Source of the DNA: Escherichia phage vB_EcoM_ULIM3 | Strand: one strand, 5' to 3' | Length of the DNA stretch: 64,000 bases | Sequence record: OQ850289 | Shown: one piece after another, positions 1 through 9,535 of the stretch | Numbering within the stretch: the stretch's first letter is position 1 | How the letters are laid out: each line of letters starts with the position of its first letter | Notes under the pieces: model-generated | The model's database searches: none | Told to the model about the DNA's origin: nothing | What the model saw: the letters and a program-made list of their open reading frames with translations, nothing else | Made by a program: the position numbers and the translations under genes

Positions 1-5276
<5,276 letters not shown>

Positions 5277-5278
5277 TA

Positions 5279-6451
5279 ATGGCAGTAGGTGAAATTCAAA
5301 TTAGTGCCTTGCCTCAAGCATCCTTACCAATTGACCTTAGTGATATCTTCCATCTTAAGCAGGGTATTGAGGATAAGAGGTGTACTCTTGAGCAATTACT
5401 TGCTCCACACGCAAGCCTAAGAAATAACCCTCATGGTGTTACTAAAACACAAATTGGTTTAGATAATGTTATTAATGCTCTTCAGTTAGTCGCTGAAAAT
5501 AACTTATCAGATATTGTTAATGTAGCTGAGGCAAGAGCAAATCTACAGATTATGTCTTCAGAAGAGGTTAATAACCTTGTCCAGCAACATATCAAGGACA
5601 AGAGTAACCCACACAATACAACTAAGGCACAGGTTGGTTTAAGTAATGTTCAGAACTGGACAACATCTAATCTGTATAACGAAGATGCAGATAAGTATGC
5701 TACAGCAAGAGCAGTAAATAACTTGTACAAGGCTGTTCAGGCTTCTTATCCAGTAGGTACTATCCATCTTTCTATGAACTCTGCAAACCCTTCCACATAC
5801 TTAATTTGTGGAGGTACTTGGGAGTTAGTTTCAAAAGGCAGGGCATTGGTTGGCTATGACTCTGATACAAGACCAGCAGGTTCTGTATTTGGCGCTTCAA
5901 CTGTCACTTTGTCAGTTAATAACATACCTCAGCACTCCCACTCTGTGTCTCTTAGCGGTGGTGGTCACACTCATAATGCAACTGTGTCAATTTCAGCTTT
6001 TGATTATGGGACTAAGACTACAAACTCTTTTGACTATGGGACAAAAGCTACTAACACAACTGGTAACCATACACACAGTGTGTCAGGTAACACTAGCACC
6101 AATGGTACTCACAACCATGATGTGTATCCTAGAGAAAATGATGGCACTGGTAATGCTGTGGCTGACTCTGATGGTGGTGGTGCAAGAAGGACATCAAGGA
6201 CTTCTAGTGATGGTGCGCACTCACACAGCTTTAACGTCACATCTGGTGCATCAGGTGACCACAGCCACACGGTTGGTATTGGTGCTCACAGTCATACAGT
6301 TGGTATTGGTTCACATACGCATAGTGGCACTGTAACAGTTTCTTCTTCTGAACATACACATAGTGGCAATACAAATAGTGTTGGTGGAGGTCAGGCAGTT
6401 AATATTGAACAGCCATCCTTCGTACTGTATGTATGGCAGAGAACAGCTTAA
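5279..6451 (+). CDS. tail fibre protein with C-terminal HxH repeats
   Basis: 390 aa; C-terminal third has repeated H-x-H motifs (HTHS, HSHT, HNHD) and FDYGTK repeats; terminator follows. Confidence 0.75.
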   Translation: MAVGEIQISALPQASLPIDLSDIFHLKQGIEDKRCTLEQLLAPHASLRNNPHGVTKTQIGLDNVINALQLVAENNLSDIVNVAEARANLQIMSSEEVNNLVQQHIKDKSNPHNTTKAQVGLSNVQNWTTSNLYNEDADKYATARAVNNLYKAVQASYPVGTIHLSMNSANPSTYLICGGTWELVSKGRALVGYDSDTRPAGSVFGASTVTLSVNNIPQHSHSVSLSGGGHTHNATVSISAFDYGTKTTNSFDYGTKATNTTGNHTHSVSGNTSTNGTHNHDVYPRENDGTGNAVADSDGGGARRTSRTSSDGAHSHSFNVTSGASGDHSHTVGIGAHSHTVGIGSHTHSGTVTVSSSEHTHSGNTNSVGGGQAVNIEQPSFVLYVWQRTA

Positions 6452-6497
6452 TTTCTTTACAGGGGCTTTATAGCCCCTTTTAAGAGGAAAATTTATA

Positions 6498-8852
6498 ATG
6501 GCAGATTACAAATTGAGTGAGCTAAACTCAATCGACACAATCCGTTCAGATGACCTTCTTCATGTCAGAGTTAAAAAGAGACCTGAAATGCTGGGTGATG
6601 AAGACCGTCGAATGACCTATCAAGATTTCTTAGCATCTTTTAAGCTTGAAAGATTTGTTCAGATTGCTGGTAGCACTATGACGGGTGACTTAGGAATTGT
6701 TAAGCTACTTTACGGTGGCAAGGCTGTATTCGACCCCACAGGCTCTTCTGAGATTACTGTTGGTGATGTTTTAAAGACTTTTAAAATCAACGCAAACGGC
6801 CTTAAACTAACTATTGCAGACGCTTCAAGGTCGGCAACTGTTTATCATACTTTGAATAAGCCAAGCCCTAATGAACTTGGGATGAGAACTAATGAAGAGA
6901 ATGACGCAAGGTATGCAAGACTAGCCGTGAATAATACCTTTAGAGGTACTCAAGCTATCCTCTCTGACAATGAAGCGCTCATTATTAAAAATATCACTCA
7001 AGGTGCTCCACTCTATCTTCGTGGTCAAGATGCAGATGGTACTAACAGATGGTATCTAGGTAATGATAATAGGGGTACAAATAATCTTGTATTGAAGAAT
7101 GTAAAGTCTGACGTTTCAATTGCTATTTTAGAGAATTTGGTGACAGTCAACAGAACTCTTCAAATTGCTGGCCAAGTTCAGCCTTCAAGTTTTGCTAACT
7201 TAGATGCTAGGTATTTTACCCAGACAGCAGCTAATCAGAGATTTGCGCAGTTAGCTGGCAATAATACATTTAGTGGTTCTAATATTTTCACTAATTTTGT
7301 TATTAAGAAGAATGCTAATGCTATTACTATTCAAAATGTAGATACAACTGCGGCTTTGTATATCCAAGCAAGGAAATCAGATGGAACTAATAAGTGGTAC
7401 ATTGGTAATGATGGTGATGAAAACATTGTAAACATCTATAACTATTTAGCAAAAACACAAATCTCATTAGGTAACACCATTACCATGAGCAGAACAGTCC
7501 AAATTGGTGGTCAAGTACAACCTTCTGATTGGACTAACATTGATTCTAGATATATTCCGGCAGCCACTTTGAGTAATCTCCCTAAACTTAATGTGTCTAA
7601 TACTTTTACAAATGTGCAAACTATTGTATCTAACAACGAGGGTTTGGTATTAAGGAACTTGACACAGGGGCAGCCACTATATATCCGTGGTGTTGATACT
7701 GAGAATGTTTCTAGATGGTGGTTAGGTGTAGGTGGTCCAAACTCTAATGTGGTAACACTTAACAACAACTATTCTGACACTAAAATCTCACTTGGTGGCT
7801 CATCAGTAATGACTAATAAGAGCTTAGCTATTACTGGTCAAGTACAACCTTCTGACTTCTCTAACTTAGATGCTAGATACTATACCCAAGCTGCCGCAAA
7901 CGCAAGATATATGCTTGCAAGCATCACTGGTTCGGCTTCTGAAGCAGATGGTGGTGATGGTGTTGCATGGGATGCAAAAACAGGTCTTTATAAGGTTACT
8001 AACACCACTGGACAGTCTTCTTCACTTGTATATCACATGTTTTTAGGGACTAGTTCTACACCATCTGCACAATTAAAGTTTTCGTTTAAAAATGGTGGGA
8101 TGTGGTATAGAACATCAAGAGATGCCTATGGCTTCGAAGTTAATTGGTCTAAAGTTTACACGGAAGCACAAAAACCAACCCCTTCAGAGATTGGTGCATA
8201 CACTAAAGCTGAAACTGACCAGAAAATTGCAACAGCAATTAGTGACTCTACAGACCTTAACAAAATCTATCCAGTTGGTATTGTAACGTGGTTTAACAGT
8301 AATGTTAACCCTAATACAGCACTCCCTGGTCTAACTTGGACGTACCTGAATAATGGTGTTGGTAGAACTATCAGAATCGCAGCAGCAAACGGTTCAGATG
8401 TTGCTACAACTGGTGGTTCAGATTCTGTGACATTAGCTGTTGGTAACTTACCATCACACACTCACAGTTTCTCTGCTACCACTTCATCTTTTGATTATGG
8501 TACGAAGAACACTAACAGTACTGGTGCACATACCCATTCAGTTAGTGGTACTGCTGCATCTGCTGGGCAACACGCACACAGAATTTCACAGGGTGACAAC
8601 GCTAACGTTTCATCAGGTAGAGTCGCATCTTCAAACTCTGCTCAGACCCATGTTGGTTGGACTGAAAATGATGGTGTTCACACCCACTCAGTTAGTGGTA
8701 CTGCTGCATCTGCTGGTGGACATGCTCACTCTGTAGGTATTGGTGCTCATAGCCACACAGTTAGTGGTAACACTGGTGGTACAGGTTCTGGTTCAGCATT
8801 TAGTGTTACTAACCAGTTCTACAAGTTAATGGCTTGGGTAAGAACTGCTTAA
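6498..8852 (+). CDS. long tail fibre protein with triplicated shaft repeat and HxH tip
   Basis: 784 aa; three ~110 aa internal repeats each ending GQVQPS(D/S)(F/W)xN(L/I)D(A/S)RY; C-terminal FDYGTK and HxH repeats shared with 5279-6451. Confidence 0.8.
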   Translation: MADYKLSELNSIDTIRSDDLLHVRVKKRPEMLGDEDRRMTYQDFLASFKLERFVQIAGSTMTGDLGIVKLLYGGKAVFDPTGSSEITVGDVLKTFKINANGLKLTIADASRSATVYHTLNKPSPNELGMRTNEENDARYARLAVNNTFRGTQAILSDNEALIIKNITQGAPLYLRGQDADGTNRWYLGNDNRGTNNLVLKNVKSDVSIAILENLVTVNRTLQIAGQVQPSSFANLDARYFTQTAANQRFAQLAGNNTFSGSNIFTNFVIKKNANAITIQNVDTTAALYIQARKSDGTNKWYIGNDGDENIVNIYNYLAKTQISLGNTITMSRTVQIGGQVQPSDWTNIDSRYIPAATLSNLPKLNVSNTFTNVQTIVSNNEGLVLRNLTQGQPLYIRGVDTENVSRWWLGVGGPNSNVVTLNNNYSDTKISLGGSSVMTNKSLAITGQVQPSDFSNLDARYYTQAAANARYMLASITGSASEADGGDGVAWDAKTGLYKVTNTTGQSSSLVYHMFLGTSSTPSAQLKFSFKNGGMWYRTSRDAYGFEVNWSKVYTEAQKPTPSEIGAYTKAETDQKIATAISDSTDLNKIYPVGIVTWFNSNVNPNTALPGLTWTYLNNGVGRTIRIAAANGSDVATTGGSDSVTLAVGNLPSHTHSFSATTSSFDYGTKNTNSTGAHTHSVSGTAASAGQHAHRISQGDNANVSSGRVASSNSAQTHVGWTENDGVHTHSVSGTAASAGGHAHSVGIGAHSHTVSGNTGGTGSGSAFSVTNQFYKLMAWVRTA

Positions 8853-8931
8853 TCCCTTGTTGACTGATTGTTAAGATGGTGTTAATATTCTTTATGGGTA
8901 TTCTCACCATCTTGGCTGATGAGGTGATTAA

Positions 8932-9129
8932 ATGCCTACAATCCTAGCAATTCTTCTAAAAAATCTAGGCAGCTTCTTCTGGAAACTCATTTTATCCCTT
9001 CTAAGTGAATACATGATTGAGAAAGTGTTCTTTAAGCTTGCAAGATACCTTGCGAGTAAAACAGACACACCTATTGATGATGAGTTCGTAGATAACTTAG
9101 AAAAAGCTTTTAAGGGGGAGAATAAATGA
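8932..9129 (+). CDS. small hydrophobic protein
   Basis: 65 aa ORF with hydrophobic N-terminus, after the tail-fibre genes. Confidence 0.4.
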   Translation: MPTILAILLKNLGSFFWKLILSLLSEYMIEKVFFKLARYLASKTDTPIDDEFVDNLEKAFKGENK

Positions 9130-9497
9130 AGTGGCTAGAGGAAGCTTTTAAAAATAATATTGGTGCAATTGTAGTTGGTATTTTTAGTGTTATTGGGATG
9201 TATACCACGATGCAAGTTTCAAGTGGTAAACAAGAAGTGTCTGTCACAACAAAGTTACAGCAGCTAGATAATTATTCCAAAAGTAACTATTCAGCTATTC
9301 GTGATTTACAGTCTGACATGAGACTGATTCAGCTAGGGATGGAGAACCAGAAAGTTCAGTTAGAGAATGTTAAGGGTGAAAACGCAAAACTTACCAAAAC
9401 TCTTGATAAATTCTCTGACAGTGTGAACAATCTGGCTCAATCAGTATCAGCCTTGCAAGCTATTACTGAGAAGAACACAAAGAATACTGAAAAATAA
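9126..9497 (+). CDS. membrane-anchored coiled-coil protein
   Basis: 123 aa; N-terminal TM segment (IGAIVVGIFSVIGMY) then coiled-coil-like sequence; ATGA overlap with upstream ORF. Confidence 0.5.
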   Translation: MKWLEEAFKNNIGAIVVGIFSVIGMYTTMQVSSGKQEVSVTTKLQQLDNYSKSNYSAIRDLQSDMRLIQLGMENQKVQLENVKGENAKLTKTLDKFSDSVNNLAQSVSALQAITEKNTKNTEK

Positions 9498-9503
9498 AAT
9501 TTT

Positions 9504-9535
9504 AAGGCTCCTTTTTACGGGAGCCTTTTTTGTTT
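9504..9535. terminator. bidirectional intrinsic terminator between convergent units
   Basis: Hairpin AAGGCTCC-TTTTTAC-GGGAGCCTT with T-run on + and A-run upstream (T-run on -). Confidence 0.7.

What the first reader, a model, noticed from the sequence alone, without database searches (positions are those of the whole stretch)
5279..8852. Two tail fibres with shared HxH-repeat tips and a triplicated shaft module
Both fibre genes end in FDYGTK repeats followed by dense H-x-H motifs, the type of repeat that coordinates metal ions in phage fibre tips. The longer gene has three tandem ~110 aa repeats each ending GQVQPSDF(S/T)N(L/I)DARY. Module sharing between two fibres suggests recombinational exchange of receptor-binding parts and possibly dual receptor specificity.
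Basis: partly seen in the sequence, partly recalled or inferred. Interest (0 to 1): 0.45.

Follow-up and report, generated by a model that had tools for sequence, protein, structure and literature searches.

The report
Felixounavirus short and long tail fibres

Summary
The window is 100% identical to Escherichia phage vB_EcoM_ULIM8 (Felixounavirus). ORF 5279-6451 (390 aa) and ORF 6498-8852 (784 aa) are syntenic orthologues of the short (gp26) and long (gp27) tail fibres seen by cryo-EM in phage Bas63.

- **Tips.** Both end in a collar, HxH needle and head module homologous to the T4 gp37 tip (PDB 2XGF). There are 9 and 6 HxH motifs, against 1.4 and 0.3 expected.
- **Shaft.** The long fibre has exactly three homologous units of about 110 aa (Pfam PF20744). 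They are related to the T7 gp17 pyramid domain, and a Mu-S-like domain follows them.
- **Sharing.** Within this phage the two tips share architecture only: 35% identity and different heads. Nothing indicates a recent exchange between the two genes here.
- **Exchange in relatives.** Cassettes do move. Flanks are 90-99% identical while tips and unit bodies drop to about 50-60%. Some relatives carry a T4-type head, or the same head on both fibres. Unit bodies swap between positions 1 and 3.
- **Dual receptor use.** Plausible, already hypothesised in print, and untested.

Novelty: already known. Interest is low.

The parts
4974..5276 (+). Context: 100-aa orthologue of Bas63 gp25, the trimeric platform to which the long fibre attaches
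   Evidence: 98% identical to bas63_0025 and in the same gene order. Its role comes from the Bas63 cryo-EM paper PMC12609058. PHROG 4141 has no named function.
5279..6451 (+). Short tail fibre (STF) gene, 390 aa; orthologue of Bas63 gp26 and VpaE1 gp74
   Evidence: Annotated 'tail fiber' in OQ850290.1. 74.5% identical to bas63_0026 over its full length. PHROG 2097 tail fiber, E 1.7e-138.
5279..5746 (+). STF N-terminal baseplate-binding part and thin shaft (aa 1-156), with two NPHxxTKxQ[IV]GLxNV motifs (aa 50-66 and 110-126)
   Evidence: Conserved among relatives: 0.84-0.99 of sampled phages identical per 20-aa bin. The motif pair appears as DNA repeat family D9. The role is inferred from Bas63.
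5747..5932 (+). STF collar domain (aa 157-218)
   Evidence: Pfam PF21939 Gp10_C, E 3.8e-17, covers aa 154-263. The region aligns to the collar of T4 gp37 2XGF and to T4 gp10.
5933..6121 (+). STF descending needle strand (aa 219-281): HSH, HTH, 2x FDYGTK, HTH, HNH
   Evidence: Motif positions; alignment to 2XGF.
6122..6217 (+). STF head (aa 282-313, VYPRENDGTGNAVADSDGGGARRTSRTSSDGA), the predicted receptor-contacting apex where the chain turns back
   Evidence: Least conserved part of the STF: 0.31-0.44 identical. Nucleotide identity falls to 0.53-0.66 against phages whose flanks are 0.9-0.99. Position inferred from the 2XGF alignment.
6218..6448 (+). STF ascending needle strand (HSH, HSH, HSH, HTH, HTH) and the C-terminal strand that returns to the collar (aa 314-390)
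   Evidence: The C-terminus EQPSFVLYVWQRTA is conserved.
6462..6481 (+). Intergenic hairpin GGGGCT-TTAT-AGCCCC followed by TTTT, ahead of the LTF ribosome-binding site
   Evidence: Read directly from the sequence. The terminator scan did not call it. Function untested.
6498..8852 (+). Long tail fibre (LTF) gene, 784 aa; orthologue of Bas63 gp27 and VpaE1 gp75
   Evidence: Annotated 'tail fiber'. 67.4% identical to bas63_0027 over its full length. PHROG 4277 matches aa 1-784 to profile positions 1-780.
6498..6881 (+). LTF N-terminal baseplate-binding region (aa 1-128)
   Evidence: Conserved at 0.82-0.94 and 100% identical in ULIM9. Not homologous to the repeat units by hhalign.
6882..7214 (+). 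Shaft unit R1 (aa 129-239)
   Evidence: Pfam PF20744; unit HMM 132 bits; hhalign.
7215..7553 (+). Shaft unit R2 (aa 240-352), with a small insertion (NIFTN) found only in units at this position
   Evidence: Units at position 2 never cluster with units from other positions.
7554..7880 (+). Shaft unit R3 (aa 353-461). Its body is of a type that sits at position 1 in Bas63
   Evidence: 62% identical to R1 of Bas63, against 44% to its own R1. The linker stays position-specific.
7881..8258 (+). gp37_C / Mu-S-like domain (aa 462-587)
   Evidence: Pfam PF12604, E 8.3e-20. Matches phage Mu tail fibre S (PDB 8JU3) residues 330-430, E 3.7e-21. Variable among relatives (0.36-0.56) and only 37% identical in ULIM9.
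8259..8456 (+). LTF collar domain (aa 588-653)
   Evidence: Pfam Gp10_C at 26 bits, just under the 27-bit cut-off. Aligns with the STF collar. Conserved at 0.86-0.91.
8457..8579 (+). LTF descending needle strand (aa 654-694): HTH, FDYGTK, HTH, HAH
8580..8678 (+). LTF head (aa 695-727, RISQGDNANVSSGRVASSNSAQTHVGWTENDGV), the predicted receptor-contacting apex
   Evidence: Most variable segment of either gene: 0.10-0.41, with nucleotide identity 0.26-0.59. In the tblastn search with LTF aa 639-784, only 16 of 204 matching phage records have a match covering at least 80% of the query.
8679..8849 (+). LTF ascending needle strand (HTH, HAH, HSH) and C-terminal strand (aa 728-784)
   Evidence: Pfam PF03335 Phage_fiber repeat at aa 724-736. 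Aligns to 2XGF. Conserved at 0.84-1.0.

Best explanation
The region encodes the two fibres of a Felixounavirus (phage vB_EcoM_ULIM8). Each is inferred to be a homotrimer fixed to the baseplate by its N-terminus. The short fibre would attach to a wedge subunit, and the long fibre to the platform protein encoded just upstream.

Both fibres end in a T4 gp37-type receptor-binding tip. A collar domain is followed by a needle in which the chain runs down, forms a small head at the apex, and runs back up to the collar. HxH motifs on both strands point inward. By analogy with T4, each motif from the three chains gives six histidines around one iron ion, which stiffens the needle. That would allow up to 9 metal sites in the short fibre and 6 in the long one.

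The variable head is the most likely contact with the receptor, which in this genus is the LPS core or O-antigen. The extra length of the long fibre comes from three tandem units related to the T7 gp17 pyramid domain, plus one Mu-S-like domain.

Shown here: gene identity, orthology, domain homologies, motif statistics, copy number, and the mosaic pattern of variation. Inferred from relatives: trimer state, attachment points, metal binding, and the head as the receptor contact.
For: - **Identity and annotation.** 100% nucleotide identity to OQ850290.1 over 5279-8852, where both genes are annotated as tail fibres.
- **Orthology.** Same gene order as Bas63 genes 0023-0029. Flanking proteins are 96-98% identical; the fibres are 74.5% and 67.4% identical over full length.
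- **Structure in relatives.** Bas63 cryo-EM shows a 430 A short and a 630 A long fibre, both with collar, HxH needle and head tips like T4 gp37. Sf14 shows the same.
- **Virion presence.** VpaE1 gp74 and gp75 were detected in virions by mass spectrometry. Their gp37 homology lies at the same residues (146-362) as found here.
- **PDB matches.** STF aa 146-362 match 2XGF at E 4.8e-29. LTF aa 648-763 match at E 3.8e-14.
- **Motif excess.** The HxH count exceeds every one of 20,000 shuffles.
- **Shaft units.** Pfam PF20744 matches three times and PF12604 once. The unit profile hits the T7 gp17 pyramid domain (7BOZ, 4A0T) at E about 1e-7. All 36 sampled long fibres have exactly three units at the same positions.
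- **Variation.** It concentrates in the heads, as expected of receptor contacts.
- **Receptor class.** The genus is reported to use LPS, not protein receptors.
Against: - No experiment exists on ULIM8 itself. Metal content, trimer state and receptor are all inferred.
- The Bas63 and Sf14 fibre densities were too poor for side chains and were interpreted with AlphaFold models.
- The shaft-unit bodies and the Mu-S-like domain vary as much as the heads, so the head may not be the only specificity determinant.
- No homologue of the T4 gp38 chaperone is present in the window (best tblastn E 0.23). Folding therefore cannot follow the T4 route in every respect.
- My own structure prediction of one unit failed (pLDDT 37.8).
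Confidence: 0.9

Rival explanations
1. The two fibres recognise two different receptors. For example, one would bind reversibly to an outer LPS or O-antigen structure and the other irreversibly to the LPS core. This is a refinement of the main explanation rather than an alternative to it, and it matches the first reader's suggestion.
For: In ULIM8 the two head-bearing segments (FDYGTK to His box) are only 35% identical. STF-head and LTF-head types assort in 13 different combinations across 35 phages. The Sf14 authors propose different receptors for the two fibres. Bas63 depends fully on an intact LPS core yet is only slightly inhibited by O16 antigen.
Against: There are no binding data. In 4 of 35 relatives both fibres carry nearly the same head (71-85% identity; a 41-aa identical run in L036). 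Two specificities are therefore not required for this virion design.
Confidence: 0.45
2. The similarity of the two tips in this genome results from a recent recombination or gene conversion between the two fibre genes.
For: Short DNA patches of 34-50 nt at 74-82% identity lie at the FDYGTK and GIGAHSHTV motifs. Real inter-locus transfer exists in relatives: 200 nt at 91% in L036 and 275 nt at 77% in JH2.
Against: In ULIM8 the tips are 35% identical in protein and the longest identical run is 10 aa. STF and LTF tips form two separate clades in 9 phages. The shared patches fall on structurally constrained motifs.
Confidence: 0.04
3. The short protein is not a receptor-binding fibre. It would instead be a T4 gp10-like baseplate strut that merely carries a collar domain.
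For: Pfam's only hit above threshold for it is Gp10_C (E 3.8e-17). T4 gp10 chains match aa 140-220 at E 4e-5 to 1e-4.
Against: The match to the T4 gp37 tip is far stronger (E 4.8e-29) and extends through the whole needle and head, aa 146-362. The orthologue in Bas63 is a 430 A fibre whose head lies free along the sheath. Its head is hypervariable, which a buried strut would not be.
Confidence: 0.03
4. The variable shaft units and the Mu-S-like domain of the long fibre are additional lateral binding sites for surface glycans. Host range would then be set by several cassettes, not only by the head.
For: Unit bodies are 0.25-0.46 conserved while the junctions are 0.70-0.79 conserved. Unit bodies move between phages and between positions 1 and 3. 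ULIM8 and ULIM9 were isolated on the same strain and lyse different strain sets. Their heads are at least 94% identical, but the Mu-S-like domain is 37% identical, R1 80% and R3 77%.
Against: High divergence can also reflect weak constraint on exposed surfaces of a structural spacer. Host-range differences between two phages can come from many other genes. No binding data exist, and copy number and length are strictly conserved, as expected of a spacer.
Confidence: 0.2

Closest known systems
Bas63 (Escherichia phage JohannRWettstein) STF gp26 and LTF gp27, cryo-EM, Sci Adv 2025 (PMC12609058)
   Same: Same genus, gene order, lengths (382 vs 390 aa; 784 vs 784 aa) and domain order. Both have gp37-like collar, needle and head tips. 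The flanking baseplate proteins are 96-98% identical.
   Different: The fibres are only 74.5% and 67.4% identical, with different heads and different unit bodies. The ULIM8 STF has 9 HxH motifs against 7 in Bas63. The paper counts five beta-helix repeat domains in the LTF; by sequence only three are mutually homologous.
T4 gp37 receptor-binding tip (PDB 2XGF)
   Same: Collar, six-stranded needle with inward HxH motifs, and a head at the chain reversal. The FDYGTK and GIGAHSHTV motifs are shared. E 4.8e-29 for the STF and 3.8e-14 for the LTF.
   Different: 39-43% identity. The heads differ. HxH counts are 9 and 6, against 7 in T4. In T4 the tip sits at the end of a four-protein fibre and needs the gp38 chaperone, which has no homologue here. 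T4 uses OmpC or LPS, whereas this genus is reported to use LPS only.
VpaE1 gp74 and gp75 (Viruses 2015, PMC4690856)
   Same: Two fibre proteins in the virion. gp74 aa 146-362 is homologous to T4 gp37, exactly as here. The N-termini are conserved and the middle of gp75 is variable.
   Different: The paper reports 54% identity between gp75 aa 584-780 and T4 gp37, so gp75 appears to carry a T4-type head. Locus L025, an IMG/VR contig I take to be VpaE1 from memory of that genome's length, has a head 92% identical to T4's. The ULIM8 LTF head is of another type.
T7 gp17 pyramid domain (PDB 4A0T, 7BOZ) and Pfam PF20744 gp37_trimer
   Same: Each of the three shaft units matches PF20744 (E 2.2e-62 overall). 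The unit profile aligns to gp17 residues 368-435 at E 1.3e-7.
   Different: T7 has a single pyramid domain directly under a beta-sandwich tip. Here three copies are stacked in tandem in mid-shaft, followed by other domains.
Phage Mu tail fibre S (PDB 8JU3, 5YVQ) and Pfam PF12604 gp37_C
   Same: LTF aa 480-581 align to Mu S residues 330-430 at E 3.7e-21.
   Different: In this LTF the domain is internal, followed by a gp37-type collar and needle. The Sf14 authors found no homologues of the Mu chaperones gp50 and gp51 in the Sf14 genome. I did not test this for ULIM8.

Membership tests
Felixounavirus/Mooglevirus STF-LTF pair (Bas63 gp26/gp27 type) | Position in the baseplate module: wedge 2, wedge 1, 100-aa platform, STF, LTF, two small ORFs, then thymidylate synthase on the opposite strand | tested here: met
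   The order is identical in the window, Bas63 and seven other phages.
Felixounavirus/Mooglevirus STF-LTF pair (Bas63 gp26/gp27 type) | Full-length sequence homology to the characterised proteins | tested here: met
   74.5% (STF) and 67.4% (LTF) identity to Bas63 over full length. PHROG 2097 and PHROG 4277 match.
Felixounavirus/Mooglevirus STF-LTF pair (Bas63 gp26/gp27 type) | Presence in the virion as trimeric fibres | not testable with these tools
   Known only for relatives: Bas63 and Sf14 by cryo-EM, VpaE1 and Sf14 by mass spectrometry.
T4 gp37-type receptor-binding tip | Collar domain preceding the needle | tested here: met
   STF: Pfam Gp10_C at E 3.8e-17, plus alignment to the 2XGF collar. 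LTF: 26 bits against a 27-bit cut-off, but its collar aligns with the STF collar.
T4 gp37-type receptor-binding tip | HxH motifs on both a descending and an ascending strand, separated by a head segment (chain reversal) | tested here: met
   STF has 4 descending and 5 ascending motifs; LTF has 3 and 3. Both strands align to 2XGF.
T4 gp37-type receptor-binding tip | Octahedral coordination of iron by six histidines from three chains | not testable with these tools
   Inferred from homology. The Bas63 paper describes the T4 case.
T4 gp37-type receptor-binding tip | Dependence on a gp38-type assembly chaperone encoded downstream | tested here: not met
   T4 gp38 has no match in the window (best tblastn E 0.23). 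The downstream ORFs are small proteins whose homologue is annotated 'putative holin' in Michonne. This affects assembly, not the fold.
Pfam PF20744 gp37_trimer / T7 gp17 pyramid domain | Match to the family profile above its curated cut-off | tested here: met
   207.5 bits against a 21.7-bit cut-off, in three stretches. The profile also hits 7BOZ and 4A0T at E about 1e-7.
Pfam PF20744 gp37_trimer / T7 gp17 pyramid domain | Interdigitated trimeric beta fold | tested here: inconclusive
   An AlphaFold2 monomer model of one unit, built from a 3-row alignment, gave pLDDT 37.8 and is unusable.
Pfam PF12604 gp37_C / Mu S-like domain | Match to the family profile and to a solved member | tested here: met
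   71.2 bits against a 22.5-bit cut-off. PDB 8JU3 matches at E 3.7e-21.

The most novel reading that the evidence does not exclude
The long fibre is a string of five independently exchangeable cassettes rather than a passive shaft with one binding tip. The cassettes are three pyramid-type unit bodies, the Mu-S-like domain and the needle head. The internal cassettes would contribute to host recognition by lateral glycan binding.

The conserved junctions (GQVQPS..N.DARY, FDYGTK, GIGAHSHTV) would serve as recombination joints. These joints would let unit bodies move between phages and between positions 1 and 3 of the same fibre.

ULIM8 and ULIM9 would be a natural test pair. They differ in host range, have nearly identical heads, and have divergent internal cassettes.
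Probability: 0.2. Interest if true: 0.45.

Novelty: already known. Interest (0 to 1): 0.14.

Why it matters
For annotation, it settles what the two genes are and gives a residue-level domain map: baseplate-binding part, units, collar, needle strands and head. That map can guide host-range engineering of a phage already tested against ETEC in pigs.

The biology is not new. The two-fibre design, the gp37-like HxH tips, the repeat domains and the idea of two receptors are published for Bas63, Sf14 and VpaE1.

- There are exactly three sequence-homologous units in all 36 fibres sampled.
- Unit bodies switch between positions 1 and 3.
- Some relatives carry the same head on both fibres, or a T4-type head.
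- ULIM8 and ULIM9 differ mainly in internal LTF cassettes.

Tried and rejected
- **Structure prediction of one shaft unit.** I used AlphaFold2 with the only alignment the tool would accept, the three window units. Mean pLDDT was 37.8, so the model is unusable and I ran no fold search on it.
- **A fourth or fifth sequence-homologous unit.** I tested the N-terminal region (aa 40-126) and the gp37_C region (aa 462-587) by hhalign. Probability was at most 5%, so I rejected this. A weak indirect link remains: the unit profile hits Mu S at E 0.008.
- **Recent exchange between the two genes of this phage.** Rejected.
- **A T4 gp38-type chaperone in the window.** None found.
- **NCBIfam.** No family matches either protein.
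- **The PhageMaP preprint on Bas63.** It holds nothing on the fibre genes.
- **The T4 gp37 tip paper (PMC2996694).** It is not held in the library. Statements about iron coordination therefore rest on the Bas63 paper's description and on general knowledge.
- **The nested ORFs 5850-6335 and 8440-8736 (+ strand, other frame).** I considered them and set them aside. They lie inside the Gly/His/Ser/Thr-rich needle regions and have no support.
- **The large protein-database searches (search for homologous proteins, the search of protein representatives).** I did not run them, because the annotated phage collection and the literature already answered the question.


Full report
**Source and genes.** The stretch 5279-8852 is 100% identical to Escherichia phage vB_EcoM_ULIM8 (OQ850290.1, Ounavirinae, Felixounavirus). 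The record annotates both ORFs as 'tail fiber'. They are 5279-6451 (390 aa) and 6498-8852 (784 aa), both on the + strand. They follow a Baseplate_J-like wedge protein, a second wedge protein and a 100-aa ORF. Two small ORFs follow them, then thymidylate synthase on the opposite strand.

**Check of the observation.**
- FDYGTK occurs at aa 241 and 251 of the short protein and at aa 665 of the long one.
- HxH occurs 9 times in the short protein and 6 times in the long one, always from the collar onward.
- Residue shuffles give means of 1.4 and 0.31. None of 20,000 shuffles reached the observed counts.
- GQVQPS occurs at aa 225, 338 and 447 of the long protein. It closes three units of 109-113 aa that are 32-44% identical in protein and about 50% in DNA.
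- The units are clearly homologous: hhalign gives 99.9-100% probability and E 1e-34 to 1e-41. Pfam PF20744 matches three stretches.

**What the proteins are.** The short protein aligns from aa 146 to 362 with the crystal structure of the T4 gp37 receptor-binding tip (2XGF) at E 4.8e-29. The alignment covers the collar, both needle strands and the head. Its collar also matches T4 gp10. The long protein matches 2XGF at aa 648-763 (E 3.8e-14) and phage Mu tail fibre S (8JU3) at aa 480-581 (E 3.7e-21). Pfam reads the long protein as three gp37_trimer domains, one gp37_C domain, a collar and a fibre repeat. A profile of 27 units from nine phages hits the pyramid domain of the T7 fibre gp17 (7BOZ, 4A0T; residues 368-435) at E about 1e-7. 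So the 'triplicated shaft module' is three stacked pyramid-type trimerisation domains.

**Orthology with characterised fibres.** Phage Bas63 (MZ501086.1) has the same gene order. Its genes 0023, 0024, 0025, 0028 and 0029 are 96-98% identical to the window's proteins. Genes 0026 and 0027 are 74.5% and 67.4% identical to the two fibre ORFs.
- The Bas63 cryo-EM paper (PMC12609058) identifies gp26 as a 430 A short tail fibre and gp27 as a 630 A long tail fibre. [quoted passage not shown] The long fibre has additional repeat domains, and gp25 is its platform.
- The Sf14 paper (PMC11821841) reports the same two fibres. It notes T7 gp17-like and Mu-like domains and a gp37-like distal tip, and suggests that the fibres bind different receptors.
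- The VpaE1 paper (PMC4690856) found both proteins in virions by mass spectrometry. It reported the gp37 homology at the same residues in 2015.

The feature is therefore already known.

**Mechanism.** By homology, each fibre is a homotrimer. In the needle the chain descends, forms the head and returns, which gives six strands. Each HxH motif from the three chains would supply six histidines around one metal ion, as in T4. That allows up to nine sites in the short fibre and six in the long one. The heads are aa 282-313 in the short fibre and aa 695-727 in the long one. They are the likely receptor contacts. The genus is reported to use LPS rather than protein receptors. These steps are inferred, not shown, for ULIM8. 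No homologue of the T4 chaperone gp38 is present in the window.

**Recombination and module sharing.** Within ULIM8 the two tips are 35% identical over 239 aligned positions. The longest identical run is 10 aa (VGIGAHSHTV). At DNA level there are only 34-50 nt patches at 74-82% identity, on the FDYGTK and His-box motifs. In nine phages the short-fibre tips and long-fibre tips form separate clades. Sharing in this genome is thus old paralogy, not recent exchange.

Exchange is nevertheless common in the genus:
- **Mosaic pattern.** Against five Felixounavirus relatives, nucleotide identity is 0.9-0.99 in the flanks. It falls to about 0.5-0.65 in the short-fibre tip (5850-6450), the unit bodies (6900-8100) and the long-fibre head (8550-8700). 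The unit junctions stay conserved.
- **Discordant histories.** REP8 has a 97% identical short fibre but a 66% identical long fibre.
- **T4-type heads.** The long-fibre needle and head of REP8 are 72% identical to T4 gp37 over 138 aa. Its head-bearing segment is 91% identical to T4's, and those of loci L016 and L025 are 87-92% identical.
- **Exchange between the two loci.** In 4 of 35 phages the two fibres of one phage carry nearly the same head. Locus L036 has a 41-aa identical run and 200 nt at 91%. JH2 has 275 nt at 77%.
- **Units changing position.** All 36 long fibres sampled (34 distinct) have exactly three units at the same positions. The unit bodies, however, switch position. R3 of ULIM8 is 62% identical to R1 of Bas63 but 44% to its own R1. 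R1 of L018 is 83% identical to R3 of L034. Position 2 never mixes, and the linkers stay position-specific.

**A lead, not a result.** ULIM8 and ULIM9 were isolated on the same ETEC strain and lyse partly different strains (PMC10223428). Their short fibres are 97% identical and both heads are at least 94% identical. The long fibre differs in the Mu-S-like domain (37%), R1 (80%) and R3 (77%). This is compatible with internal cassettes influencing host range. Other genes could equally explain the difference.

**Limits.** My structure prediction for one unit failed (pLDDT 37.8). The fold assignment therefore rests on sequence and profile homology and on the published models. The Bas63 paper counts five repeat domains in the long fibre. 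By sequence only three are mutually homologous. The Mu-S-like domain may be a distant fourth, given the unit profile's weak hit to Mu S at E 0.008.

**Verdict.** It is right in spirit, but not by its own argument, on recombination. It is untested on dual specificity. Novelty: already known. Interest is low.

Noticed in passing
window 6462-6481: A hairpin GGGGCT-TTAT-AGCCCC followed by TTTT sits between the short-fibre stop codon and the long-fibre ribosome-binding site. It could act as a partial terminator that sets the ratio of the two fibres. The consensus terminator scan did not call it.
   Followed up: no
L036:1533-5098 (IMG/VR contig of 87,603 bp, the same length as Enterobacteria phage UAB_Phi87); L006 (phage JH2): In these relatives the short and long fibres of the same phage carry almost the same head. 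L036 has a 41-aa identical run and 200 nt at 91%. JH2 has 275 nt at 77%. This indicates transfer between the two fibre loci.
   Followed up: partly
L003:4720-7077 (phage REP8); also L016 and L025: The needle and head of these long fibres are of the T4 gp37 type: 72% identity over 138 aa for REP8, and 87-92% in the head-bearing segment. The same tip cassette therefore circulates between Felixounavirus and Tequatrovirus.
   Followed up: partly
window 7554-7880 versus L002:5080-5412: The body of shaft unit 3 in ULIM8 is of the type found at position 1 in Bas63 (62% identity, against 44% to ULIM8's own unit 1). Unit bodies move between positions 1 and 3 while the linkers stay position-specific. 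Position 2 never mixes.
   Followed up: yes
L042 (phage ULIM9) versus window 7881-8258: ULIM9 was isolated on the same strain as ULIM8 but has a partly different lysis pattern. Its heads are nearly identical to ULIM8's, yet its Mu-S-like long-fibre domain is only 37% identical.
   Followed up: partly
window 8932-9129 and 9126-9497; 9504-9527: Two small ORFs (65 and 123 aa) lie just downstream of the long fibre and are 98% conserved against Bas63. Their N-termini look hydrophobic by eye. The Michonne homologue of the second is annotated 'putative holin'. A two-way terminator-like hairpin follows at 9504-9527.
   Followed up: no
window 8860-8888: A promoter-like site (TTGACT, 17 nt, TAATAT with TG) lies in the gap after the long-fibre gene. 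It overlaps an imperfect inverted repeat (AAGATGGTG ... CACCATCTT).
   Followed up: no
window 5426-5476 and 5606-5656 (short fibre aa 50-66 and 110-126): The short fibre's N-terminal half carries two copies of an NPHxxTKxQ[IV]GLxNV motif. That stretch (aa 30-132) draws tblastn hits in unrelated phages, such as Bacillus phage Shbh1 and Ralstonia phage FLC1-1B.
   Followed up: no
window 5850-6335 and 8440-8736, + strand, alternative frame: Open reading frames of 161 and 98 aa are nested inside the needle-coding regions. They are most likely a by-product of the Gly/His/Ser/Thr codon bias there, and nothing supports them.
   Followed up: no
L010 (Erwinia phage Tian) and L011 (Yersinia phage vB_YenM_P778): These more distant Ounavirinae keep a short-fibre homologue (about 43% identity). 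The fibre genes I tested downstream of it (Tian 058-060; P778 061-062) have none of the pyramid-type units. The triplication is thus confined to the Felixounavirus/Mooglevirus branch.
   Followed up: partly
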